NCBI GenBank assembly: GCA_003056265.1
Contig: NBVN01000003.1
Location: 1 to 32,000 of the forward strand
Direction of reading: 5' to 3'
Origin: Zestosphaera tikiterensis
GTDB lineage: Archaea; Thermoproteota; Thermoprotei_A; Sulfolobales; NBVN01
Length of the DNA stretch: 32,000 bases
A program made the position numbers and the translations under genes. Positions 196-17,811 of the stretch are shown one piece after another; within the stretch, counting starts at the first letter, position 1, and every line of letters starts with the position of its first letter. A model generated the notes under the pieces. That model was not told the DNA's origin. It ran no database searches and was given only the letters and a program-made list of their open reading frames with translations.

Positions 196-273
196 GGGCC
201 CGTGGCCTAGCCAGGATAAGGCGCCGGCCTTCGGAGCCGGAGGTCCCGGGTTCAAATCCCGGCGGGCCCGCCA
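196..273 (+). tRNA. tRNA-Arg, anticodon TCG, CCA encoded
   Basis: Cloverleaf folded by eye. Acceptor GGGCCCG/CGGGCCC, D stem GCCT/AGGC, anticodon stem CCGGC/GCCGG with loop CTTCGGA (anticodon TCG), T arm CCGGG-TTCAAAT-CCCGG, discriminator G, CCA at 271-273. No intron. Confidence 0.93.
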
Positions 274-2932: not shown

Positions 2933-3109
2933 TTAAGTTAATATTGAAACAATAACATCTTTAGACACGCTATCCCAACTATCTAGAAAATCTCTATAGA
3001 AATCCCCGTAAACTCTCTTTAAAACACTAATAACATCTTCATCATATATAAGCATAGCTAAAACCATACATAGAACAATATGCAGTAAGACCAATAAAAC
3101 TCCTAACAC
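2933..3109 (-). CDS. Possible 58-aa small membrane protein (GTG start)
   Basis: VLGVLLVLLHIVLCMVLAMLIYDEDVISVLKRVYGDFYRDFLDSWDSVSKDVIVSILT*. One hydrophobic helix followed by an acidic tail. Just under the ORF-track cutoff, with no homology evidence. Confidence 0.25.
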   Translation of the reverse strand: MLGVLLVLLHIVLCMVLAMLIYDEDVISVLKRVYGDFYRDFLDSWDSVSKDVIVSILT

Positions 3110-3135
3110 ACTTAAACCATTGAGAGGAAATTCGT

Positions 3136-3223
3136 GACGGAGTGGCCGAGTGGTCCAAGGCGGTGGGCTCGAGACCCACTGGCGGTTATACCGCCGCGCT
3201 GGTTCAAATCCCGCCCCCCGGCA
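3136..3223 (+). pseudogene. tRNA-Ser(CGA)-like relic lacking a pairing 5' acceptor strand
   Basis: The D arm, anticodon arm GTGGG-CTCGAGA-CCCAC (CGA), long variable arm GGCGG-TTATA-CCGCC and 3' end ...CCCCCCGGCA are class II tRNA-like. The 5' seven nucleotides GACGGAG cannot pair with the 3' acceptor, and the T stem has a U-C mismatch (GCTGG/CCCGC). Confidence 0.6.
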
Positions 3224-3264
3224 TCATTCCTCTGTAATTTCCAACGCTTCCCCGGGTAGCTGTT

Positions 3265-3287
3265 GTAGTAATACGTGTAGTAATACG
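3265..3287 (+). repeat. Tandem direct repeat GTAGTAATACG x2 (12-nt period), partial third copy following
   Basis: GTAGTAATACG at 3265-3275 and 3277-3287, followed by GGTAGTGG. Lies about 200 nt upstream of the giant gene. Confidence 0.6.
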
Positions 3288-3416
3288 GGTAGTGGTTCCC
3301 TTGATTTCTAATTTCCTGTATTAGAGACGTATTATAGTCGGAGGTTCAGCTTTTTGAGGCGGGGGTGAGGTTGGAGCTTATCCTTATTCATCAGCTATAG
3401 GTATTTTCATTGGTTG

Positions 3417-3450
3417 GGTTTGACTAATTTAGTCAAACCAAATTTATATA
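3417..3450 (+). promoter_or_regulatory. Perfect 10-bp inverted repeat abutting a TATA-like box upstream of the 1593-aa gene
   Basis: GGTTTGACTA-ATT-TAGTCAAACC (3417-3439) is immediately followed by AAATTTATATAAGG (TATA-like 3443-3450), about 40 nt before ATG 3488. GAGGGTGGG lies just upstream of the start. Confidence 0.5.
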
Positions 3451-3487
3451 AGGGTGTCTACCTAGTTAGACGTGAGGGTGGGTCCTC

Positions 3488-6400
3488 ATGGTAAGGCTTA
3501 TTGCCCGGTCTCTCTCCATTATTATGGTTGTACTACTAGTACTACCCGAAGCAAATATCATTTTTGCTGAGAACACTCTATTAGGGCCGGCCTTCAATAG
3601 CGTTCAGAAAATCCCCGTGGTAAAACCCTCTAGGGATTACCTACCGGCAAATTACAGTCACGCCTTGAACCTCATATTTAATTTTAAAACCGATCAGGGG
3701 TTAAAGAGGGAAACAGGTATTACGACTACATTGATTAGTGACAATACTGTTAGAATACATGCCTACAACTACTACACTAACTACTTGGCAATAGCCGACT
3801 TAGACCTCGTAACCCTGGAGAAGAAAGTAAAATACGTCTTCTCCCAGTACTATAATGAAACACCACATATGTATGGACCAATTATCCGGATCAACGGCAC
3901 AGCCTACAACTTCATAGAACAAATGACTAATTACGGTGTCCCAGCCGGGATCCTGGGGTCAACAGATGTCGGCGCCAACACTATTGTCGTGACCCGCGTC
4001 ATGGGTTTTGACCTTCCACCGATTGAGTTAAAAATCGGTAGAGATGATACTGCTCGCCGAGACAAAGGCTATATAGTGATCGCCAGCCTCAATAAAAACA
4101 GCGCGGACACATATATTCTCGATCTCGGCGCGGTAGTTGATAGAGCATTAGGTGGACCAGGCATAATAAATAGTATTCCATTCGATGTGAGGGCATTGAA
4201 TAGTGCGAGCATCCGCTTCAATGGATCTACTATGAGCCTTGCACTCACGAGCCTTGGATGGCCCGGCGCCCCCGTGTATCAAGGCTGGATAGACTACGTC
4301 GATGGATTAGCGAGGATAGGCGAGCGTATAAATAATACTCATGTAAAGCTCTTCGCGGGGACAATAATAGCGCAGATCGATCTAGGGGATATGAAGGTTA
4401 TTAATGCATCCTTCGTGTACTCGAAGGAATATAACTCCTTCTCCATAGGTAAGCCCCTCAGTGACGGTGGATTCCTAGTACTACTCGTCTCAGTTAATTC
4501 AGTAGTATTCGTTAAGGTAGGCAAGGAACTACGCATAGAATGGGTAACTAGGATAGACCTACCTGCGATAAACCCTGATAATCCTGGGTGGTTCATCAAC
4601 CACTTTAAAATAGCTGAGGCCGGGAATGGGTACGTGGCTTTACTACCGTTTAACCTCGTGCAAAAAGGCTGGCCGAGGGAGAAACCCGTGGTAGTCTACC
4701 TGGATAAGAGCGGTCGCCTCAAGTGGAGTGCGCAGCTGCAGCCAGTGACATGGGTGCATACTGATATAGCTGAGTTATCCGCAGATAACGATACCATCTA
4801 CGTTGTATGGTCTAGTAACTATGACAATCCCCCTGGGAAACTATCATGGATAACGATGTTTGATGAGAGTGGGGAAGTGCTCGGGTCATTTAGGAACGCT
4901 GTAGGCATAGAGTATAACGCTGGCTTATTCACGGAGGTGCATGGGAGGCTCGGGAGAGATAGGACGATAATATGTAGGCCTACAGGCTATCACATATTTC
5001 ATAGAGGGGGCTTTGAGGGATGGATTGACGCCATGTACCTGCTCAACGACTATGACACTATGGAGCTAGGGGAGAACAGTCCCTTCAGGGATTTCAGGAG
5101 TAATGATGCTGACCTTGAGAAAGGCGAGGGGTGGATTGTTTCAAGTAATCCGACATGGCTGAATGTCTCCTACGGCTACACCGGGGTAGGCATAGCATAC
5201 TATAAGCACCCTATCCTCGTTAAAAGCGGGGAATCTATAACCATCAATAATACATATGTTGACACCCCACAGATAGTAACTGTGCTTAGGGATGTAGAGA
5301 GCACAGTAGAATTCACACCATCCTTCGTCTACCCAGTAGCCATTATGCCTGATGAAATAGACTTTGGACAGGTTCACATAGGGGAGGAGAAAGCTGTTGA
5401 TGTGGAAGTTGTATGGCTATCAGATATGTCTGGCACAGCAAGGGGCTACATCTACCACATTCCTAAAGCCCCATTCAAGCTCGGCGACTTATTCAAAGTG
5501 GAGGACGCCCATGTCGGTAATCATGTGCGTGTGAGAATGTACTTTAAGCCTGATAAAGAGGGGATAGCTACAGATATATTTGGCCTAGGCGCCATGATAT
5601 ATCCGGGAGTAGGCTACCCGGATCCATCTAGATTAGATTATCCTAGGCAAACAATCCCCGTGAGGGGAATCGGTGTTTCACGGGATAAGCCCATTGTTAT
5701 CAATATATCTAACTGCCCAGTTAGTCTAGGGCTTTCGGCATCCTACATCTCTATGCCTCCCTTCATACTGCCCGGTTCATCCTATAGGGAGTCAATCTAC
5801 ATAACCAACATAGGTAATGCTGAGGCAGTGTTCATTCACGGGATCCTAGTGCTACCTGGGAGCACCGTTATCTCCGTTAAGGGAGCTGATGAGGTTATAG
5901 GCCTCGGCAACGAGAGCCTGGATCCATTCTTCGCAATAGCTACAAAACTCAAGCCCCTGGAGACTAGGAGGATAGATATCTACATGAGGATAACGGCGGA
6001 GCTAGCGGATCGCAACAGCCCCTACAGGAAGCTGGGCCTAGAGCGGGCACCACATGGAGCTGTGCCCATGGAGATAGCGGCTCTACCACCTGCTCTATGG
6101 GAGGAGGCTTGGAGCTACTATAAGAAGAGCGATAAACCCCATCTCGTCGTGGACGCTGCGCTCAGAATGTACAATGACTACGTGGCCGGCATAGTGATGA
6201 AGCTGGGGGAGATGCCGGAGGATGAGCTGAATGATGCGCTAGTAAACTTGTGGATGAGTAATCAATACCTAGCCGACTACCTTGACATCGTATCCTTCAG
6301 AATGGCCATGGGCGACTGGATGTTCAATGAGACGGCTGCTTCCATAATTATTGGGGCTAATGGAGAGGTGTTGAATGCCAGCGGTATAAAGGTCAATAAT

Positions 6401-8269
6401 ACGACGAGCATGCCTAGGAGCAGTGTGCTGAGGCTTGAATCCATACTCCCAGGTATGGTAGGGGTTCAAGCTGAGAGCGATGAGCCCGGGCTCATATGGT
6501 ATCTCAGAGAGCTCTTTAAGCCCAAGGAGTTCTTGGAGACCGCTGGCCAGGGCCTTATAGGTCTGGGCGAGGGAGCTATCCAGGCCTTAACTTTCGACTT
6601 GGTGAAAATCGATGCGAAGAACGAGTACCAGGCCGTGGGGAAGACCATAGGCTATATAGCTACTAACGTGGAAATGCTTGTGGCGAATGCGGCCAGCATA
6701 AGCAAGTCCTTACCCGGGCTTTTACCCGGTCTCAAGAGTGCAGTAACTAACTTGGCGACTGCTGGTGTGAACACTGTAAAGGTTGTTGGCTCGGGCTTGG
6801 TAACGGGTTTTAAGTCCTGGCGTTTATCGAAAATGTTAGGTGGTGTAGGCCCCGCCTTGTTGATGAAGCTCTTCAAAGTCGAGTCCACAATTCCTGTCAA
6901 TATCCCGATCCTGAAGAAAACCATAGAGATACCCTGGGAGCTAAGTTTCCTCGAGAACTATAAGACGCTGCTAGGCTTCGAATACCTAATCCCGACTGAG
7001 GGGAAGACAGTCTATGGTAACATCATCAAGCTTGCCGAGAACAAGAATTTCGGGGGATGGTATATAGGTATAGGCTACACTCTCAACAAGGTCATAGAAG
7101 TAGATGGTAAGTTGGTCTATCCTGGGTGGTGGCACTACTACCTTAAATCCGGCAAGCTAGTCGTATACAACCCCGAGATAAAGGGATATACGGAGGAGCT
7201 CCTACCTATTCTCCAGCCCCTCCTAGGTGCAATGAAGGATTTAGCGATAACAGCCTACCGGAACCCTGCAGTCACCTACTTGACTACCGGCCTCGCACAC
7301 AATGCGTACTCACTTCTCTGGGGGGACATGTACAACCTTCTCCAGCTATCCTATGGGGACACTCTTTCCCGGGTAAGCTTCAGCGCAGACCCCAACGAGC
7401 TCCATATCAGGCCATCGCCCTATGTGGGTAGCCTTGATTCAGACATTTATATACAGACTCGCTTTGAGAACCTAGCTAATGCGACTGCGCCAGCCTACAA
7501 TATTACTGTCAGGGTTTACCTGGAGGGTCCGGTTAACGCTTCCACGATTACTGTGTGGGATGCCAGTCATCCTGAAGCGTTTGACGGCTATAGAGTCAGT
7601 GTTGATGACGGTAGGGTAGTTGTAGAGGTGAGGTTCACTAATATAACGCTACCCCCGAATAAGAATCCACCCGAGGGTGAGGGGTGGGTGACTCTGAAGC
7701 TCAGATTCCTGGGTGATGCTAGGCCTGGAGACAGCATTAGGGCCTATGCCGATGTCTACTTCGACTATAACCCGCCAGTCAGAACCAACACGGAGTCTAC
7801 AACATATGACCCAGATCCCCCTGAGGTAAGCATTAATGCTTCTGTTGAGCCGGGTAAGATCAGGGTGAGTCTCACATGTCTCGATAGTGTTTCAGGATGC
7901 AACTACACAGTATTGATGTTGCGGAAGGGTGTGAACCCGCTGGCTAACGAGACCCTGCTGGAGCCGGGGCCTGGAGGTGTCTACGAGGTGAGCCTAGAGC
8001 CGGGAACCTACACTCTTGTGGCCATAGGCATTGATAATGCTGGTAACAGAGTCTGGAGCAACACAACTATAAATGTGCCGGGAATCACTACGAATACACC
8101 CTGGGGCAACACCACGACTATAAACGTGCCGGGAACTACTAGCGCCACGAATGAGAGTGAAAGCCGTGGTGGAGGTAGTGGTATCCCCATCTGGATCTAC
8201 CTGGCAATCCCCCTGGTAGCGGTTGCCGCTGTGATCCTTGTAGTTAAGTTGCGACGTCCTAAGAGCTAG
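3488..8269 (+). CDS. Giant secreted, C-terminally membrane-anchored, heavily sequon-decorated cell-surface protein (S-layer/adhesin-like)
   Basis: Uninterrupted 1593-codon ORF. N-terminal signal-like MVRLIARSLSIIMVVLLVLPEANIIFA and C-terminal TM IPIWIYLAIPLVAVAAVILVV followed by KLRRPKS. At least 23 N-x-S/T sequons by eye. Segments IDFGQVHIGEEKAVDVEV and SYRESIYITNIGNAEAV look Ig/PapD-like. C-terminal LPPNKNPPEGEGWVTLKLRF...ADVYFDYNPPVRTN and DNAGN look like adhesin-type motifs. Confidence 0.9.
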   Translation: MVRLIARSLSIIMVVLLVLPEANIIFAENTLLGPAFNSVQKIPVVKPSRDYLPANYSHALNLIFNFKTDQGLKRETGITTTLISDNTVRIHAYNYYTNYLAIADLDLVTLEKKVKYVFSQYYNETPHMYGPIIRINGTAYNFIEQMTNYGVPAGILGSTDVGANTIVVTRVMGFDLPPIELKIGRDDTARRDKGYIVIASLNKNSADTYILDLGAVVDRALGGPGIINSIPFDVRALNSASIRFNGSTMSLALTSLGWPGAPVYQGWIDYVDGLARIGERINNTHVKLFAGTIIAQIDLGDMKVINASFVYSKEYNSFSIGKPLSDGGFLVLLVSVNSVVFVKVGKELRIEWVTRIDLPAINPDNPGWFINHFKIAEAGNGYVALLPFNLVQKGWPREKPVVVYLDKSGRLKWSAQLQPVTWVHTDIAELSADNDTIYVVWSSNYDNPPGKLSWITMFDESGEVLGSFRNAVGIEYNAGLFTEVHGRLGRDRTIICRPTGYHIFHRGGFEGWIDAMYLLNDYDTMELGENSPFRDFRSNDADLEKGEGWIVSSNPTWLNVSYGYTGVGIAYYKHPILVKSGESITINNTYVDTPQIVTVLRDVESTVEFTPSFVYPVAIMPDEIDFGQVHIGEEKAVDVEVVWLSDMSGTARGYIYHIPKAPFKLGDLFKVEDAHVGNHVRVRMYFKPDKEGIATDIFGLGAMIYPGVGYPDPSRLDYPRQTIPVRGIGVSRDKPIVINISNCPVSLGLSASYISMPPFILPGSSYRESIYITNIGNAEAVFIHGILVLPGSTVISVKGADEVIGLGNESLDPFFAIATKLKPLETRRIDIYMRITAELADRNSPYRKLGLERAPHGAVPMEIAALPPALWEEAWSYYKKSDKPHLVVDAALRMYNDYVAGIVMKLGEMPEDELNDALVNLWMSNQYLADYLDIVSFRMAMGDWMFNETAASIIIGANGEVLNASGIKVNNTTSMPRSSVLRLESILPGMVGVQAESDEPGLIWYLRELFKPKEFLETAGQGLIGLGEGAIQALTFDLVKIDAKNEYQAVGKTIGYIATNVEMLVANAASISKSLPGLLPGLKSAVTNLATAGVNTVKVVGSGLVTGFKSWRLSKMLGGVGPALLMKLFKVESTIPVNIPILKKTIEIPWELSFLENYKTLLGFEYLIPTEGKTVYGNIIKLAENKNFGGWYIGIGYTLNKVIEVDGKLVYPGWWHYYLKSGKLVVYNPEIKGYTEELLPILQPLLGAMKDLAITAYRNPAVTYLTTGLAHNAYSLLWGDMYNLLQLSYGDTLSRVSFSADPNELHIRPSPYVGSLDSDIYIQTRFENLANATAPAYNITVRVYLEGPVNASTITVWDASHPEAFDGYRVSVDDGRVVVEVRFTNITLPPNKNPPEGEGWVTLKLRFLGDARPGDSIRAYADVYFDYNPPVRTNTESTTYDPDPPEVSINASVEPGKIRVSLTCLDSVSGCNYTVLMLRKGVNPLANETLLEPGPGGVYEVSLEPGTYTLVAIGIDNAGNRVWSNTTINVPGITTNTPWGNTTTINVPGTTSATNESESRGGGSGIPIWIYLAIPLVAVAAVILVVKLRRPKS
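8060..8140 (+). repeat. In-gene tandem repeat encoding NTTINVPGIT / NTTTINVPGTT stalk
   Basis: AACACAACTATAAATGTGCCGGGAATCACT (8060-8089) and AACACCACGACTATAAACGTGCCGGGAACTACT (8108-8140). Thr/Asn-rich linker just before the C-terminal anchor. Confidence 0.7.
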
Positions 8270-8730: not shown

Positions 8731-8810
8731 TTATAGATGTTGATAAGTGAAAAATATCAATTAGATATATTTAGATGTCTTTATTTATGGATTTGTTGAG
8801 TTTCGACATC

Positions 8811-8960
8811 GATGATGATGGTGAGGTGGGTGAGCGTTAAATGAATTCAAGTTCGATGTAGGGAGTTATGAAGGAATGATTAGCTCCCGCAGTCGGGCTT
8901 GAAGGATCCCATAGGCGATGAAAACCTACGTAAGCATTGATCTACTTACGTATGTGCGAA
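8811..8960. ncRNA. GC-richer hairpin-bearing intergenic patch (candidate ncRNA or relic)
   Basis: Hairpin GGGAG(T)...(G)CTCCC at 8861-8888 with ATGAAGGAATGAT in its loop. 8-bp hairpin TACGTAAG(N10)CTTACGTA at 8927-8952, followed by GAACCC as in patch 2090-2330. Confidence 0.25.
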
Positions 8961-9131
8961 CCCTACCTAGCAACTTATTAAGTTTGACCAGTACGTTTAA
9001 CACAGTAACCGTTACCTAGTCACTCTACCAAATTCTCCTGATATTGCATTATAAATCTTGGCTTACATAAGTTGCTTGTAAATGTAGGTATACAATATTT
9101 CATGCTAAACTTTATCATCCTGTTGATGTCT

Positions 9132-9665
9132 TTAGAGCTCACCTATCTCTCTGAGAAATTCTTCAAGTACTTCCTTAGATATTATCCAGAAACCGCTTTC
9201 TATGAGCTGGTCTATTACCTGCTTCGCCTTAGGGATCAATCCCTTATACTTGGCTAATGTTATTATACCTAGCGTACTCATCACTTATAACCCCAGCTTC
9301 TTAGCTAGGTTTCTCGTGTCCCTGTCGTCTACGAGTAGCAGATCCGCGTTACGCTTTAGTGCTAGAACTATTGCTTCTGCTTCGTCAGTATTTACAAACT
9401 CTTCAAGAAGAGCTACCAGCCTCTTATTACCAGCTTTACCTACATCTATGAAATCTGCTCTCACTATCTTCTCACTACCGGGCTTATTCTCAACCGTTAT
9501 CTCCTTCCAGACCGCTTCCGGGATAAGTATTTTCCTGAAGAGTTTCTCTAAGATATCTAAACGGCATATCTTGACGAATGCAATAATAACGCTTGAATTA
9601 GAGACAACGAGAAGCTCTTCCTTTCCCCTACCACTTTCTTGTCTTTTTCGCAAGCTTCTTGGCAA
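9132..9665 (-). pseudogene. DUF3368-like PIN-type toxin interrupted by an in-frame TAA
   Basis: ORF 9285-9665 ends ...RNLAKKLGL then TAA (9285-9287). The same frame continues VMSTLGIITLAKYKGLIPKAKQVIDQLIESGFWIISKEVLEEFLREIGEL* (to stop 9132-9134), which is the expected C-terminal half. The N-terminal motif reads VVSNSS where this family (from memory) has an Asp. Confidence 0.7.
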
Positions 9666-9909
9666 GCTCCAGGTCTTCCCTCAACTCTTCTTCATCGTAG
9701 TGTAGTGGTATACCTTCTCTAGCTAGCAGTTCTAGGAAGTCCCACTTCGAAAGACTAGCTATTCTCCTAGCCTGACCCAGACTAGCTATACCTTTCTCGT
9801 AAAGCCTCAACGCTAGCTCTACTCTGAATCTCCCCTCAAGCTCGTCAGGAGGAACCCTAAGACCCTCAGGAACCTCAATAACAACACGCTTAGCCCTAGT
9901 TTTAAACAC
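9628..9909 (-). CDS. UPF0175-family antitoxin-like protein
   Basis: 93 aa, ELALRLYEKGIASLGQARRIASLSKWDFLELLAREGIPLHYDEEELREDLE. This is the typical UPF0175 pattern (from memory). Lies upstream of and overlapping the DUF3368-like gene. Confidence 0.8.
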   Translation of the reverse strand: MFKTRAKRVVIEVPEGLRVPPDELEGRFRVELALRLYEKGIASLGQARRIASLSKWDFLELLAREGIPLHYDEEELREDLELAKKLAKKTRKW

Positions 9910-10103: not shown

Positions 10104-10143
10104 GAGCCGTAGGTCCCGGGTTCAAATCCTGGCGGGCCCGCCA
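10104..10143 (+). repeat. Near-perfect copy of tRNA-Arg 3' end (att-type scar)
   Basis: GAGCCGTAGGTCCCGGGTTCAAATCCTGGCGGGCCCGCCA against tRNA 234-273. 38/40 identical, and the next two bases (CA) also match. Confidence 0.85.
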
Positions 10144-10511
10144 CAGAATTGAGGCCACTTATTTTCATATGATCTCTGCTTCATTTTATTTGGTTGTATT
10201 CATGAGCTAGCATTAACCTTACCGCATTTAATCAAGTTGAAGTTGTTAGATGTTGAGTATTGATAATGTAACCAACGCCGTTAGGGTTTTCGTCGTAAAT
10301 CAGACGCAACCATCTATTCTTAAGCCTCCTCACAAACTTCCTTGCTGGTATGAACCTATCTGGTACATTCTCTATGTACTTTACTTAGCATGTGCATCGC
10401 CAAACTTTTTAACATTAACTTCTCTCCCCTCTGCGTACCAAGTGGTAATAGCGTATGCCTAGGATTACTGCAACTACCAGCGCGGGAGGACTCCTGAAAG
10501 CCATAGCTATG

Positions 10512-11630: not shown

Positions 11631-11686
11631 GGACGCCAGCCTTCGGAGCCGAAGATCCTAGACTCAAATACTGGCGATCCACCACA
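11631..11686 (+). repeat. Strongly decayed copy of tRNA-Arg from the anticodon stem to the 3' end
   Basis: GGACGCCAGCCTTCGGAGCCGAAGATCCTAGACTCAAATACTGGCGATCCACCA against tRNA 219-273. About 40/55 identical with one gap. The anticodon loop CTTCGGA is preserved, and the differences are mostly G->A and C->T. Confidence 0.7.
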
Positions 11687-11715
11687 AAACAGGTATTAGC
11701 TATTCATGATAATAG

Positions 11716-11886
11716 TTATTTAATTACAGTCTCTCGCACTGGTCCTAAATTTTTCAGTATTACGATTTTGTCTTTCTCTCGGAAGGTTATCTCTAACTTC
11801 TCGAAGAAGCCTTCACGACCCAAGATCATTATATCTGATGCTATGTAATCGGTGAATGCTATAGGTATTGTTAGCCATTTTGCCTT
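11716..11886 (-). pseudogene. Possible AbrB/SpoVT-like antitoxin remnant without a partner toxin
   Basis: 56-codon open frame KAKWLTIPIAFTDYIASDIMILGREGFFEKLEITFREKDKIVILKNLGPVRETVIK*. The only ATG (11878-11876) is out of frame. The resemblance to AbrB-fold antitoxins is weak. Confidence 0.2.
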
Positions 11887-11980
11887 TTATGTAATTCCTC
11901 GATATTCTCAGATATTCTTACTTACTTTCCCTACTCTCAAAGCTTAAAGTTTATATTTTAGGTAAGTGAGTATATATTCT

Positions 11981-12160
11981 TGGAGTTGATGAGGGGGTTT
12001 ATCCACCTAATAGAATAGGTGGATCCCTGAGGAAAAATATCGTAAAGATGGGAGAGAGGGGTAAGCGTATGCGGGGGTGCTTGGGTCGCCCCTAAGAGCC
12101 TCCGCAGTGAAGGATGAAGCCCGACAGAGCGGAGGAACAAAAAATGAAGGGATGAAGAAA
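11981..12160. ncRNA. GC-rich structured intergenic patch (candidate ncRNA or relic)
   Basis: Hand GC count 37/60 for 12061-12120. Perfect 8-bp hairpin ATCCACCT(N8)AGGTGGAT at 12001-12024, bracketed by TGATGA (11987-11992) and CTGA (12027-12030). Second hairpin CTCCGC(N23)GCGGAG at 12100-12134 with GTGAAGGATGAAG in its loop. ATGAAGGGATGAAG at 12144-12157. Confidence 0.3.
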
Positions 12161-12197
12161 GTAGTTAAGAGCTATTGAGAGCGATTAGGAGTATCGT

Positions 12198-12479
12198 TCA
12201 GACCTGAACCCTACCTATACCTTCTATTTCTATGTTTACGTGTTTCTTAAGGTACGCTTTCACATATCCACCAACACCTGCGAGATATGCTGGCTCAGCA
12301 TTATCGAAGCTAATCCCAGCGTACTCTGCTACGCTCGTATGAAACAAGCTTATCGAAGCACCACTGTCCACTAAGACATAGACAAGGATCTTGCCATGAG
12401 AACCTATAAGCCGTACGGGTATAATCGGGTAATACCTCCTACGGCGCTCAACATATTTAAACTCCACACTACCAGCCAT
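12198..12479 (-). CDS. Single-domain retropepsin-like (clan AA) aspartic protease
   Basis: 93 aa with the active-site motif in LVYVLVDSGASISLF (D-S-G-A). The size fits a homodimeric retropepsin fold. Confidence 0.8.
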   Translation of the reverse strand: MAGSVEFKYVERRRRYYPIIPVRLIGSHGKILVYVLVDSGASISLFHTSVAEYAGISFDNAEPAYLAGVGGYVKAYLKKHVNIEIEGIGRVQV

Positions 12480-12532
12480 AGTTGGTGAAACCTCTACACT
12501 GTTTCTCTAGAGAATATCTTAGCCTCCCCCAG

Positions 12533-12745
12533 CTAGACTACTAGAAGGTCGTGGCTTGGAACCTTTATGATGCCATAGCTTCCTCTCTCATAACCCTTCT
12601 CCTCCATTATCCCCTCCAGTTCTTCCAGAGTACGAGCATATGCTATAACTCTCCCATCTACAATAGCGGCCCAATGACCCTCTGGAACCTTATCCAGCTC
12701 ACCCTTCTTAATAACCTCGATAGGCTTACTCTTCAACCATACCAC
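12533..12745 (-). CDS. Small protein, DUF5678-like (from memory), upstream partner of the retropepsin-like gene
   Basis: 70 aa, GHWAAIVDGRVIAYARTLEELEGIMEEKGYERGSYGIIKVP. Same strand, 53 nt upstream of the protease gene. Confidence 0.6.
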   Translation of the reverse strand: MVWLKSKPIEVIKKGELDKVPEGHWAAIVDGRVIAYARTLEELEGIMEEKGYERGSYGIIKVPSHDLLVV

Positions 12746-17280: not shown

Positions 17281-17811
17281 TTGTATCAATATCCCATTAT
17301 AGGGATTTACGTGAGTTCGGGGTTGAAACATAGGTTTGTTCATGTGCTTAAAGGTTATGAGTTGGTGCTCAGGCTTTACGACCCCTATAGGCGTAGGATT
17401 TACGAATATAACACTATGATAAGACCTACAGGCTATTATTTAAAGCCTATACACGTAGTTTATAAGGCTTTAGGCTACGTTAAGTTAAGGTATGTTTACT
17501 TCGGCAGGTATTGGTATAGACTTCATAAAACACACTCAAGCTCAAGTAAGTATAAGGTTAAATGGATCTACGTAGGGAGGGATAAACCAGATCCTCACCT
17601 ACCGGACCCCCCGTTAAATCCATTCGAAGGTTTACGCATGATCGCCATAAACGACGACATCGTAGTGACTAGGGAGGTTTTTGAAGCTTTAAGAAAGCTT
17701 TCGCAATCAATCCTAGGTGAGGACATATTCGTGGAAGTACCTGAGGAGAAACCGCCTAAGAAAGACCCGTACGAATCCTTAGGTCCTTTAGGTTTTTTCC
17801 TCCCGTTTTAA
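17281..17811 (+). CDS. Hypothetical basic protein with an integrase-N-terminal-like Y/W-rich hairpin motif
   Basis: 176 aa (possibly starting at the GTG about 10 codons in). VKLRYVYFGRYWYRLHK...KVKWIYVGRDKP resembles the KGRxYVY...K.YVG motif of SSV-type Int N-termini, also seen in ORF 24523-24852. The tail is acidic and Pro-rich. Confidence 0.6.
   Translation: MYQYPIIGIYVSSGLKHRFVHVLKGYELVLRLYDPYRRRIYEYNTMIRPTGYYLKPIHVVYKALGYVKLRYVYFGRYWYRLHKTHSSSSKYKVKWIYVGRDKPDPHLPDPPLNPFEGLRMIAINDDIVVTREVFEALRKLSQSILGEDIFVEVPEEKPPKKDPYESLGPLGFFLPF

What the first reader, a model, noticed from the sequence alone, without database searches (positions are those of the whole stretch)
3488..8269. 1593-aa anchored, sequon-rich surface protein as the main cargo of the island, compositionally distinct from the core genes
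The largest ORF in the window sits between a tRNA-Ser relic and TA debris inside the tRNA-Arg island. My hand GC counts for three 60-nt lines inside it were 24/60, 39/60 and 30/60. Three lines in core genes gave 26/60, 25/60 and 19/60. Its codon look is clearly different from MetRS or the membrane protein. This is a small sample and needs computing.

The protein has a signal peptide, at least 23 N-x-S/T sequons, Ig-like segments, a Thr/Asn stalk and a C-terminal TM anchor. Its C-terminal motif PPNKNPPEGEGWVTLKLRF...ADVYFDYNPPVRTN resembles, from memory, a repeat found just before sorting signals in bacterial (Bacteroidota) surface proteins.

A horizontally acquired envelope or adhesin protein in an archaeon could alter the S-layer, virus receptor display or cell-cell contact.
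Basis: partly seen in the sequence, partly recalled or inferred. Interest (0 to 1): 0.62.

Follow-up and report, generated by a model that had tools for sequence, protein, structure and literature searches.

The report
Imported mosaic archaeal surface glycoprotein
The longest gene of this heat-loving archaeon encodes a membrane-anchored, sugar-coated surface protein that came recently from distantly related archaea and is stitched together from at least two versions of the gene, showing that these organisms trade and reshuffle their outer-surface proteins.

Summary
ORF 3488-8269 (+) is intact at 1593 aa and is the genome's longest ORF. It has an N-terminal signal-type segment, 25 N-x-S/T sequons (10.9±3.0 in shuffles), a Thr/Asn stalk, a C-terminal TM helix and a basic tail. 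GC is 0.49 against 0.42 for the genome; GC3 and codon usage lie in the outer 2-3% of genes.

The protein belongs to a very rare family of ~1560-1620 aa proteins: about 10 members among billions of proteins, all from Desulfurococcales-like archaea. Its layout is a beta-propeller head, two Ig-like domains, an unmodelled variable centre, then DUF7619, an Ig-like domain, stalk and TM.

Horizontal origin is strongly supported. A metagenome contig whose housekeeping proteins are only 55-67% identical to this genome's carries the gene at ~90% nucleotide identity, also directly behind a tRNA-Ser. The decayed tRNA-Ser here, with its upstream flank, is 94% identical to a genome of another family. The gene is a mosaic: head and tail match the metagenome allele, the centre matches a Pyrodictiaceae-type allele. 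dN/dS of about 0.2 argues it is functional.

The donors are archaeal, not bacterial. DUF7619 does precede T9SS sorting tails in bacteria. Whether the protein is an accessory adhesin (favoured) or a lattice-forming S-layer protein is unresolved. A better native S-layer candidate exists elsewhere in the genome.

The parts
196..273 (+). Intact tRNA-Arg(TCG); left anchor of the integration hot spot
   Evidence: ARAGORN; Rfam tRNA 67.5 bits
1980..2021 (+). Copy of the tRNA-Arg 3' half (79%); older integration scar
   Evidence: the repeat finder family D2
2982..3134 (-). Foreign flank: promoter region plus the truncated 5' end of a NOL1/NOP2/Sun-type methyltransferase gene (the 58-aa ORF 2933-3109 covers the remnant). 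94% nt identical to genome G039, which belongs to another family.
   Evidence: blastn window 2982-3218 = L032 1363-1599, 94.1%. G039 has a 443-aa intact gene. G000 has only 31-34% paralogs.
3135..3225 (+). Decayed tRNA-Ser(CGA) copy, the left junction of an integration at the tRNA-Ser 3' end. The body is G039-like; the sequence immediately 3' of it is L017-like.
   Evidence: Two acceptor-stem mismatches and a T-stem defect, against a perfect stem in G039. Low Rfam score. Three-way alignment A5. Intron-bearing tRNA-Ser(CGA) candidates exist elsewhere in the genome.
3226..3487 (+). Spacer and promoter carried along with the gene. Palindrome TTGACTAATTTAGTCAA at 3420-3436, TATA-like TTTATATAA at 3443-3451, GAGGGTGGG 5-14 nt before the ATG.
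   Evidence: Homologous over its whole length to the spacer between tRNA-Ser(TGA) and the gene in L017 (alignment A4; blastn from 3138). Sequence read directly. Promoter function is inferred.
3488..3571 (+). Signal-peptide-like N-terminus (aa 1-28)
   Evidence: Hydrophobicity peak at aa 1-29. The conserved mature N-terminus LGPAFNSV follows in all family members.
3635..4987 (+). Beta-propeller head (aa ~50-500); L017-type allele
   Evidence: AF2 model mbaeeaad291b3 is all-beta here, pLDDT mostly 70-97. Foldseek finds integrin-alpha ectodomains and propeller proteins. Profile hits to SBBP/DUF5122 propeller proteins.
5285..5995 (+). Two Ig-like domains (aa ~600-735 ASH/HYDIN-like; aa ~745-836 CARDB-like). 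The recombination breakpoint lies between them, near nt 5697.
   Evidence: AF2 strands. Profile hit to a HYDIN/ASH Ig protein at aa 609-662. Identity switches from the L017 type to the P0002 type at aa ~720-740.
5996..7372 (+). Variable central cassette (aa 837-1295): helices plus a small beta region, fold unknown. Pyrodictiaceae-type allele.
   Evidence: AF2 pLDDT <50 for model residues 87-465. No Pfam or PDB match. 88%/57% identity to P0002 against 35%/29% to L017. Segment trees.
7388..7804 (+). DUF7619 (PF24595), a CnaA-like E-set Ig domain (aa 1301-1439)
   Evidence: Pfam 73.7 bits. Genome search places it at 7388-7804. AF2 pLDDT 75-87.
7820..8077 (+). C-terminal Ig-like domain (aa ~1445-1530)
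   Evidence: AF2. Foldseek finds tandem Ig/FN3, pilin EbpB and transglutaminase barrels.
8060..8167 (+). Thr/Asn-rich, sequon-bearing stalk (aa ~1525-1560) with the internal repeat NTTINVPG
   Evidence: Translation; sequon positions 1525, 1541 and 1555
8177..8269 (+). C-terminal TM helix (aa ~1564-1586), basic tail KLRRPKS and stop codon
   Evidence: Hydrophobicity 2.83 over aa 1562-1591. The same layout occurs in all family members.
9132..9909 (-). UPF0175 antitoxin (9628-9909) plus a frameshifted PIN-like toxin (9285-9665 and 9132-9284); TA debris to the right of the gene
   Evidence: Pfam; ORF list
10104..10145 (+). Copy of the tRNA-Arg 3' half (95%); scar closing the segment that holds the gene
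   Evidence: the repeat finder family D2
11646..11687 (+). Third, most decayed copy of the tRNA-Arg 3' half (64%)
   Evidence: the repeat finder family D2

Best explanation
The ORF encodes a functional cell-surface glycoprotein. It is exported by an N-terminal signal sequence, heavily N-glycosylated, and held in the cytoplasmic membrane by one C-terminal TM helix with a basic cytoplasmic tail.

From the membrane outward it consists of:
- a Thr/Asn glycan stalk
- an Ig-like domain
- a DUF7619 (CnaA-like) domain
- a fast-evolving central cassette of unknown fold
- two Ig-like domains
- a large beta-propeller head

This is the layout of a receptor or adhesin (head on a stalk on an anchor, comparable in arrangement to an integrin alpha chain). 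I take its most likely role to be ligand, surface or cell binding above or within the S-layer, as an accessory to the cell's own S-layer protein.

The DUF7619-Ig-stalk-anchor part is a reusable archaeal anchoring cassette. It carries quite different heads in other archaea: beta-helix, lysozyme-like, or a 2200-aa variant.

The gene is foreign to this genome. My reconstruction of its history:
1. It once sat at the tRNA-proximal end of DNA integrated at the 3' end of a tRNA-Ser gene, as it still does in contig L017.
2. In a host related to G039, that junction was tRNA-Ser(CGA).
3. A block containing this junction plus the gene then landed in the tRNA-Arg integration hot spot of the present genome.
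4. Before or during this history, homologous recombination replaced aa ~737-1323 with a Pyrodictiaceae-type allele.

What is shown: the anatomy, rarity, foreignness, junction structure, mosaicism and purifying selection.
What is inferred: glycosylation, surface exposure, binding function, and the order of the transfer events.
For: Anatomy:
- ORF, signal segment, TM, tail and sequons.
- AF2 models and Foldseek.
- DUF7619.

Anchoring cassette:
- The C-terminal module is shared with archaeal TM-anchored proteins that have other heads. The PPNK..PEGEG motif lies 171-236 aa from the C-terminus in about two dozen of them.

Rarity:
- 7 clusters among 5.8 billion.
- 6 full-length representatives among 1.84 billion by profile search.
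- 2 of 60 relatives.
- DUF7619 over the cut-off in 8 of 301 genomes of the order.

Foreignness:
- Composition.
- L017 shares 89.6% nt over window 3138-5697 and 90.4% over 7459-8154. L017's Cbf5 and KOW proteins are only 55.5% and 66.7% identical to G000's.
- MetRS is 70% identical to same-family G013 (over its N-terminal 302 aa) and 54% to G057. The surface protein is 39% and 60% respectively.
- No shared synteny in seven loci.

Junction.

Mosaic: sliding identity, segment identities, segment trees with SH-aLRT 95-100.

Functional state: dN/dS 0.16-0.21 with dS 0.2-0.3 against L017.

Accessory rather than the native S-layer:
- G000 C2:166901-170428 has a beta-rich head, a ~230-aa Ser-rich coiled-coil stalk and a TM.
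- It has full-length homologs at 28-52% in 13 relatives of six families.
- It has matches in 52 of 60 relatives.
Against:
- The central 460 aa could not be modelled and might hold an activity or an oligomerisation or lattice function.
- The propeller has no identified ligand site.
- The five other genomes tested that carry this family or the 2200-aa variant lack a full-length homolog of the tetrabrachion-like candidate. In its native hosts the family could therefore be the S-layer protein itself.
- Part of the GC excess is intrinsic to the gene. In every host its GC is pulled toward ~0.5 relative to the flanks, and the segment-wise GC pattern is the same in L017.
- No integrase and no right-hand tRNA-Ser repeat are present, so the mobile-element framing rests on the left junction only.
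- The genome has 19 contigs (93% complete) and the window is a contig end. Read-level support for the joins could not be checked.
Confidence: 0.6

Rival explanations
1. It is a lattice-forming S-layer protein: an alternative or second S-layer subunit that can replace or supplement the resident one after transfer.
For: - Its size, signal peptide, sequon density, Ig-like domains, Thr-rich stalk, TM anchor and basic tail are all typical of archaeal S-layer glycoproteins. Single-polypeptide TM-anchored Ig-rich SLPs are now documented in Thermoproteota (bioRxiv 10.64898/2026.08.21.746120).
- There is one copy per genome in every host.
- The five other genomes tested with this family or the 2200-aa variant have no full-length homolog of the tetrabrachion-like candidate.
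- S-layer families in this order are themselves patchy. The tetrabrachion-like candidate is full-length in only 13 of 60 relatives.
Against: - G000 already has a better native candidate, with native-type codon usage (GC3 0.305) and ~50% identical homologs in same-family genomes.
- The gene has foreign codon usage.
- The family is extremely rare: 6 representatives in 1.84 billion proteins.
- A propeller head plus a helical centre is unlike the Ig arrays of known SLPs.
- No sequence link to any solved SLP was found.
Confidence: 0.25
2. It is a native gene. Its odd composition only reflects amino-acid content or expression level, and its patchy distribution reflects fast divergence.
For: - In every host the gene's GC deviates from the flanks toward ~0.5.
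- The segment GC pattern is shared with L017.
- Surface proteins evolve fast.
Against: - ~90% nt identity (dS 0.2-0.3) to a contig whose housekeeping proteins are 55-67% identical cannot be vertical.
- The adjacent tRNA-Ser plus flank is 94% identical to a different family, whose MetRS is only 31% identical.
- The similarity ranking is incongruent with MetRS.
- DUF7619, the best-conserved part, is missing in 293 of 301 genomes of the order.
Confidence: 0.04
3. It is a virus or provirus structural protein (envelope or receptor-binding protein) left by an integrated virus.
For: - It lies in a tRNA integration hot spot, next to an integration junction.
- Large glycosylated TM-anchored proteins with a propeller or Ig head can be viral attachment proteins.
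- Foldseek against BFVD gives propeller and Ig matches.
Against: - No PHROG match.
- No relative on 2.9 million viral contigs.
- No viral gene or integrase in the window.
- The seven homolog loci sit among ordinary chromosomal genes.
- The BFVD matches are generic folds with TM-scores of 0.54 or less.
Confidence: 0.03
4. It was acquired from Bacteria (a Bacteroidota-type T9SS cargo protein), as the C-terminal motif might suggest.
For: DUF7619 co-occurs with Por_Secre_tail in bacterial proteins, and the FDYNPPVRTN motif is nearly identical in some of them.
Against: - All full-length relatives are archaeal.
- The nearest DUF7619 copies are archaeal at 36-59%, with bacterial ones at 27-36%.
- The protein has no T9SS tail and uses an archaeal-type TM anchor.
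- The bacterial DPNDK lysine is absent.
Confidence: 0.03
5. The locus is an assembly or binning artefact: a chimeric contig end joining DNA of several organisms at tRNA genes.
For: - The assembly is 19 contigs, 93% complete, with 1.7% contamination, and the window starts at a contig end.
- The switches of similarity occur at a tRNA gene, a classic place for chimeric joins.
Against: - The block is bracketed within about 0.65 kb on each side by repeats specific to this genome: 2018-2334 with at least 7 other copies, and 8793-8961 with a 91% copy on C14. It also lies within this genome's tRNA-Arg scar series.
- The tRNA-Ser copy shows mutational decay, which is not expected of a fresh mis-join.
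- The ORF is intact across the allele breakpoints.
Confidence: 0.05

Closest known systems
Fibrillar / modular surface adhesins carrying CnaA-like E-set domains (DUF11/CLIPPER, DUF7507, DUF7619; Protein Sci 2025, PMC12617251)
   Same: Long, secreted, surface-anchored protein. Ig-like stalk domains including a bona fide DUF7619 (73.7 bits). A distinct distal head. The domain lies next to the sorting or anchoring signal.
   Different: - There is no tandem array of repeats, only four separate Ig-like domains.
- The isopeptide lysine of the reference domain (the DPNDK position) is Leu here and is absent in the whole family, so a cross-link is unlikely.
- The anchor is a TM helix.
- The survey reports DUF7619 in Gram-negative bacteria and names only CLIPPER and CLIPPER_2 as also occurring in archaea.
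Bacteroidota T9SS cargo proteins with DUF7619 followed by Por_Secre_tail (e.g. P0039, P0050 Saprospiraceae)
   Same: The same order of parts at the C-terminus: DUF7619, about 100 aa of Ig-like spacer, then the sorting or anchoring element. Some also have SBBP/DUF5122 propeller heads.
   Different: Only 27-36% identity in the module. A T9SS C-terminal domain stands in place of a TM helix. Different domain of life and export route.
Integrin alpha-chain ectodomain (PDB 4mmx_A, 3fcs_A), by architecture only
   Same: Top Foldseek matches (E 1e-9 to 1e-8): N-terminal beta-propeller head followed by Ig-like 'leg' domains. The full protein also ends in a single-pass TM.
   Different: 7-8% sequence identity and TM-scores of 0.2-0.26. 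No evidence of homology, of a beta-chain partner or of metal-site motifs. It is an analogy of layout, not membership.
Staphylothermus marinus tetrabrachion (S-layer protein of Desulfurococcales; PMC5744192)
   Same: Similar size (1524 aa precursor, from my own knowledge). Signal peptide, beta-rich distal part, glycosylation, C-terminal membrane anchor, same broad taxon.
   Different: No long coiled-coil stalk precedes the TM. Another G000 protein (C2:166901-170428) has exactly that feature and is much more widespread.
PySLP-like colossal TM-anchored Ig-rich S-layer proteins of Thermoproteota (bioRxiv 10.64898/2026.08.21.746120)
   Same: A single polypeptide combining the distal part, Ig-like stalk, TM helix and basic cytoplasmic tail. 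The exposed parts are the most variable.
   Different: - A propeller head and a helical centre replace the array of 14-19 Ig domains.
- The tail ends in Ser, not Lys.
- No sequence match was seen in any search.
- Homology was not tested directly, because the reference sequences were not at hand.

Membership tests
Pfam DUF7619 (PF24595) domain family | Profile HMM score above the curated gathering threshold | tested here: met
   73.7 bits against 27, aa 1301-1439, full-length profile 1-133. 79.2 bits in the genome search.
Pfam DUF7619 (PF24595) domain family | E-set / CnaA-like Ig beta-sandwich fold | tested here: met
   The AF2 model has pLDDT 75-87 and is all-beta for this segment. Foldseek matches pilin, FN3 and transglutaminase Ig-type barrels. 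The fold class of the family is taken from PMC12617251.
Isopeptide-bonded CnaA-like domains | Lys (strand A) - Asp/Glu - Asn triad, as in the reference L7WFS8 (Lys657/Asp695/Asn764) | tested here: not met
   Bacterial T9SS-type copies have DPNDK. This protein has DPNELH, and no family member has Lys at that column (alignment). This is a test by sequence only.
Fibrillar adhesins (stalk of tandem repeats + adhesive head + anchor) | Cell-surface anchor | tested here: met
   C-terminal TM plus basic tail, conserved in all members
Fibrillar adhesins (stalk of tandem repeats + adhesive head + anchor) | Stalk made of tandemly repeated domains of one family | tested here: not met
   Four Ig-like domains of different types, separated by a 460-aa non-Ig region. 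No internal repeat family was found by Pfam.
Fibrillar adhesins (stalk of tandem repeats + adhesive head + anchor) | Head domain with demonstrated or recognisable binding function | not testable with these tools
   The propeller head is predicted, but no ligand site or characterised homolog is known.
Archaeal S-layer (lattice-forming) protein | Present as the major envelope protein across the lineage (orthologs in related species) | tested here: not met
   2 of 60 relatives. DUF7619 over the cut-off in 8 of 301 genomes of the order. No synteny. Caveat: S-layer families in this order are patchy in general.
Archaeal S-layer (lattice-forming) protein | Very high expression and self-assembly into a 2-D lattice | not testable with these tools
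No structural or biochemical data.
Tetrabrachion-type S-layer protein | Long coiled-coil stalk directly preceding the TM anchor | tested here: not met
   An Ig-like domain and a Thr/Asn stalk precede the TM. There is no long helix there. The feature is present instead in G000 C2:166901-170428.
T9SS cargo protein | C-terminal Por_Secre_tail sorting domain (PF18962) | tested here: not met
   Pfam finds no PF18962. The C-terminus is a TM helix.
Archaeosortase substrate (PGF-/PEF-CTERM type) | Recognised CTERM signal and an archaeosortase gene in the genome | tested here: not met
   No NCBIfam match. No PF09721 in the genome, which is 93% complete. Some distant DUF7619 relatives do end in PEF-like tails.
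tRNA-targeting integrative element (integrase-mediated island) | Direct repeat of the tRNA 3' part bounding the insert | tested here: inconclusive
   tRNA-Arg: three 3'-half copies are present. tRNA-Ser: only the left, hybrid junction is present, with no downstream repeat.
tRNA-targeting integrative element (integrase-mediated island) | Integrase gene (tyrosine recombinase or SSV-type) in the element | tested here: not met
   PF00589 and PF16795 hit only contig C14, with nothing in the window.

The most novel reading that the evidence does not exclude
The gene may be the leading cargo of a small family of tRNA-Ser-targeting integrative DNA. This DNA would shuttle a modular surface protein between families of hyperthermophilic Thermoproteota, and its head, centre and anchor cassettes would be re-assorted by recombination.

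That would amount to a horizontally traded 'surface identity' locus, changing virus receptors or cell-cell recognition in one step. The DUF7619-Ig-anchor unit would serve as a cross-domain, general-purpose pre-anchor module: a TM helix in Thermoproteota, PEF-like tails in other archaea, and T9SS tails in Bacteroidota.
Probability: 0.15. Interest if true: 0.6.

Novelty: new variant of a known kind. Interest (0 to 1): 0.42.

Why it matters
The cell-surface proteins of uncultivated hyperthermophilic Thermoproteota are almost unknown at gene level, apart from tetrabrachion, SlaA/SlaB and the recently described Pyrobaculum-type S-layer proteins.

This locus gives a clean, datable example of three things:
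- A very large envelope glycoprotein gene moved between archaea that differ at family level or more.
- The old integration junction was carried along with it.
- Its middle was swapped by recombination with a divergent allele.

That is the behaviour expected of a locus under pressure from viruses or from cell-cell recognition.

It also places DUF7619, surveyed so far mainly in Gram-negative bacteria, in a fixed 'pre-anchor' position in many archaeal surface proteins. That is a testable hint that the domain has a role in presenting or attaching surface proteins, rather than being a mere spacer.

The biochemical function remains unknown, so the finding is of moderate rather than high interest.

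Tried and rejected
- **tRNA-Ser as the genome's only copy.** I first concluded that tRNA-Ser(CGA) at 3135-3225 was the genome's only copy and therefore functional. I rejected this after the structure printout showed a broken acceptor stem. ARAGORN with introns found other tRNA-Ser(CGA) candidates, and its best match proved to be another family's gene.
- **GC step as a donor signature.** I considered that the GC step at ~5.6 kb marks the recombination donor. I rejected this because L017 shows the same segment-wise GC despite a different central allele.
- **Sequence searches of solved structures.** Searches with the protein and with both family profiles found nothing significant. NCBIfam and PHROGs gave nothing.
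- **Second AF2 job.** It left aa ~924-1302 unmodelled, so the centre remains unknown.
- **Viral contigs.** No relative found.
- **Metagenome-contig scans.** Neither the protein patterns nor a 24-nt exact word shared with L017 found anything. The downstream end of the L017-type locus could therefore not be recovered.
- **Integrase.** None in the window. The ORF at 17281-17811, which another note suggested is Int(N)-like, has no Pfam or PHROG match.
- **Archaeosortase.** None in the genome.
- **Malformed call.** One DNA alignment was malformed and was repeated correctly.


Full report
**1. The observation**

It is the longest of the 1140 ORFs of at least 200 aa that I extracted from the 1.81-Mb, 19-contig assembly. 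The window is the first 32 kb of contig C19.

Computed composition bears out the hand counts.
- GC is 0.490 against 0.419 genome-wide. Only 1.1% of equal-length genome windows are as GC-rich.
- GC3 is 0.547 against 0.423 ± 0.053, in the top 2.7% of ORFs.
- Synonymous-codon likelihood under the genome's own usage is in the bottom 2.1%.
- The anomaly is confined to the ORF; the flanks sit at 0.40-0.43.

The protein features are also as described.
- There are 25 N-x-S/T sequons against 10.9 ± 3.0 in shuffles. That is 15.7 per 1000 aa against 4.1 for the genome.
- A signal-type N-terminus, a Thr/Asn stretch, a C-terminal TM helix and the tail KLRRPKS are all present.

**2. What the protein looks like**

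Pfam recognises only DUF7619 (aa 1301-1439, 73.7 bits). NCBIfam, PHROGs and PDB sequence searches give nothing.

I ran AlphaFold2 on a 7-sequence family alignment of aa 1-840. The model is usable (pLDDT 74, pTM 0.73) and all-beta. It shows a propeller-like head at roughly aa 50-500, followed by Ig-like domains at about 600-735 and 745-836.
- Foldseek's best PDB matches are integrin alpha ectodomains (propeller plus Ig legs), then hydin/ASH Ig arrays and alpha2-macroglobulins. TM-scores are low, as expected for multi-domain models.
- A profile search links aa ~294-459 to SBBP/DUF5122 propeller repeats and aa 609-662 to ASH/HYDIN Ig domains.

The second model (aa 837-1593) is confident only for DUF7619 and the next Ig-like domain. 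These resemble pilin, FN3 and transglutaminase barrels. Residues ~924-1302 remain unmodelled: predicted helices plus a small beta region.

The order of parts is therefore: signal peptide, propeller head, two Ig-like domains, unknown centre, DUF7619, Ig-like domain, glycan stalk, TM, basic tail.

**3. The family**

The family is very rare.
- The word-indexed search of 5.8 billion clusters found six relatives, 34-72% identical. Five are 1565-1620 aa; the sixth, P0003, is the 1079-aa truncated product of the L017 copy.
- An exhaustive profile search of 1.84 billion representatives with the N-terminal 840 aa found only six full-length representatives.
- The named records are a Pyrodictiaceae MAG and an 'uncultured Desulfurococcales archaeon'.
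- Among 60 related genomes only two carry it: G057 (another family, 60%) and G013 (same family, 39%).
- DUF7619 passes its cut-off in 8 of 301 genomes of the order. Four have this architecture. Four, all of one genus, have 2200-aa-type proteins (one copy is cut by a contig end); the copy examined (G089) shares only the C-terminal module (36%) and aa 742-925 (26%).

The seven loci examined have entirely different neighbours: metabolic genes, membrane proteins, Cbf5, ABC transporters.

**4. Horizontal origin, and a fossil integration junction**

Contig L017 (JGI metagenome 3300005801) matches the window at two places:
- 89.6% nucleotide identity from 3138 to 5697
- 90.4% from 7459 to 8154, where L017 ends

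L017's Cbf5 and KOW-domain proteins are only 55.5% and 66.7% identical to G000's orthologs. L017's flanks have GC 0.50, like the gene itself. L017 thus belongs to a distant organism that shares a recent copy of this gene.

In L017 the gene lies directly behind an intact tRNA-Ser(TGA), and the whole 262-nt spacer is homologous to window 3226-3487.

In the window the corresponding tRNA is a decayed tRNA-Ser(CGA).
- It has two acceptor-stem mismatches and a T-stem defect.
- Its Rfam score is poor.
- Its body plus 153 nt upstream are 94% identical to genome G039, which belongs to another family.
- That upstream piece is the truncated 5' end of G039's NOL1/NOP2/Sun-type methyltransferase gene. G000 has only 31-34% paralogs of that gene.
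- G000 and G039 MetRS are only 31% identical.

The three-way alignment shows the switch exactly at the tRNA's 3' end. Upstream and body are G039-like; downstream is L017-like. The last 29 nt of the two intact tRNAs are identical and could serve as the crossover core.

This is the signature of DNA integrated at the 3' end of a tRNA-Ser gene. The junction from a previous, G039-like host was carried into G000.

The block now sits between copies of the tRNA-Arg 3' half at 1980-2021 and 10104-10145 (95%), in a region of toxin-antitoxin genes, several of them broken.

Two pieces of a complete element are missing. No integrase is present, and there is no right-hand tRNA-Ser repeat.

Genome-specific repeats lie within about 0.65 kb on each side: 2018-2334 with at least 7 other copies, and 8793-8961 with a 91% copy on C14. 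This argues against an assembly chimera.

**5. Mosaic structure**

Sliding identity, segment identities and segment trees agree.

| Segment | Identity to L017 allele | Identity to P0002 (Pyrodictiaceae-type) | Tree result |
|---|---|---|---|
| aa 30-720 | 92% | 44% | groups with L017, SH-aLRT 100 |
| aa 740-920 | 35% | 88% | groups with P0002, SH-aLRT 99 |
| aa 921-1290 | 29% | 57% | groups with P0002, SH-aLRT 95 |
| aa 1296-1535 | 85% | 84% | the three group together, SH-aLRT 99 |

In the two central segments, L017 joins the P0006/7/8 clade (SH-aLRT 100 and 99).

At DNA level the centre matches the Pyrodictiaceae loci at 77% and does not match L017 at all. Recombination between deeply diverged alleles has therefore exchanged aa ~737-1323.

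dN/dS against L017 is 0.16-0.21 with dS 0.2-0.3, so the gene has been under purifying selection since the split. The L017 copy carries one in-frame stop.

One caution applies to the compositional argument. The gene's GC is drawn toward ~0.5 in every host, and its segment-wise GC is the same in L017. Part of the compositional signal is therefore intrinsic to the gene. The phylogenetic evidence, not GC, is what proves transfer.

**6.

I searched with aa 1296-1540. The same DUF7619-Ig-TM ending appears on archaeal proteins with other heads:
- right-handed beta-helix (a Thermoplasmata MAG, 44%)
- phage-type lysozyme
- a Bathyarchaeota Ig-repeat protein
- the 2100-2200-aa proteins

More distant matches (27-36%) are bacterial proteins that combine DUF7619 with the T9SS Por_Secre_tail, including a Saprospiraceae protein.

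In about two dozen archaeal proteins the PPNK..PEGEG motif lies 171-236 aa from a C-terminal TM or PEF-like tail. In the T9SS example the same ~100-aa spacing separates the domain from the sorting domain.

It does not indicate a bacterial source.

DUF7619 is classed as a CnaA-like E-set domain, with a predicted isopeptide triad in its reference sequence (PMC12617251). The lysine column (DPNDK in the T9SS-type copies) is Leu or another residue in this whole family. An isopeptide bond is therefore unlikely here. G000 has no archaeosortase, so a plain TM anchor is expected.

**7. Function**

The layout is a head on Ig-like legs above a glycosylated stalk and a single TM. Together with the exchange of cassettes, this fits a surface receptor or adhesin exposed to selection from viruses or partners.

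I favour an accessory role in G000 because the genome has a stronger native S-layer candidate at C2:166901-170428 (1176 aa).
- It has a signal peptide, a beta-rich head with 20 sequons, a ~230-aa Ser-rich coiled-coil stalk and a TM: the tetrabrachion plan (PMC5744192).
- It has full-length homologs at 28-52% in 13 relatives of six families, including same-family genomes, and matches in 52 of 60 relatives.

The S-layer reading is not excluded.
- The other five genomes tested that carry this family or its 2200-aa variant lack a full-length homolog of that candidate.
- S-layer families in this order are patchy.
- Single-chain TM-anchored Ig-rich S-layer proteins are now known in Thermoproteota.

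A viral origin finds no support.

**8. Verdict**

- archaeal donors
- a nested tRNA-Ser junction
- a mosaic gene

The protein is a new, uncharacterised variant of the known class of anchored archaeal surface glycoproteins. The evolutionary history is unusually well resolved. The biochemical role is inferred only.

Noticed in passing
G000 contig C2:166901-170428 (+), outside the window: A 1176-aa protein with a signal peptide, a beta-rich head (20 sequons), a ~230-aa Ser-rich coiled-coil stalk and a C-terminal TM; GC3 0.305. It is built on the tetrabrachion plan. Full-length homologs (28-52%) occur in 13 relatives of six families. It is the likely native S-layer protein.
   Followed up: partly
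window 11872-12212 and 2018-2334: Two short non-coding repeat families are scattered over the genome. The first (~340 nt) has at least 15 copies at 78-89%. The second (~320 nt) has at least 7 copies at 74-80%. They are probably MITE-like or transposon-derived RNA elements.
   Followed up: partly
window 2933-3109 (-): The 58-aa ORF is the truncated N-terminus of a NOL1/NOP2/Sun-type methyltransferase. It is ~90% identical to the 443-aa gene of G039, and is a gene fragment imported together with the tRNA-Ser junction.
   Followed up: yes
L017:5724-5726 (JGI 3300005801 contig Ga0079640_1002317): The closest copy of the gene has a single in-frame stop after ...GDNEYQ (aa 1079), and the frame continues for more than 440 aa. 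This is either a recent pseudogene or a sequencing error.
   Followed up: partly
L029:2513-9115 (G089 contig C2) and three other genomes of the same genus: 2200-aa-type surface proteins occur in four genomes of one genus (one copy is cut by a contig end). The copy examined (G089) shares only the DUF7619-Ig-TM module and one Ig/helical stretch with the window's protein and has a different, unannotated 880-aa N-terminal part. It lies between a citrate transporter and CysRS.
   Followed up: partly
proteins P0027, P0028, P0032 (metagenomic, archaeal-type C-termini): A phage-type lysozyme domain (PF00959) is fused upstream of DUF7619 in proteins of 957-1381 aa with hydrophobic C-terminal tails. This would be a surface-anchored muramidase-like enzyme on the same anchoring module.
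   Followed up: no
window 9132-9665 (-): The PIN-like toxin next to an intact UPF0175 antitoxin (9628-9909) is split by a frameshift into 9285-9665 and 9132-9284. A RelE-like remnant lies at 2708-2911.
   Followed up: partly
window 12198-12745 (-): An intact pair among the TA loci: a DUF5678 protein (70 aa) and a 93-aa retropepsin-like aspartyl protease (PF13650/PF13975).
   Followed up: no
window 3420-3451: A perfect palindrome TTGACTAA-T-TTAGTCAA lies immediately upstream of the TATA-like TTTATATAA of the big gene. It is largely conserved in L017 and may be a regulator-binding site.
   Followed up: no
G000 C19:73204-73316 and C2:28652-28753: ARAGORN finds intron-bearing tRNA-Ser(CGA) candidates only in intron mode. 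The default scan misses about 11 tRNAs in this genome (39 against 50).
   Followed up: partly
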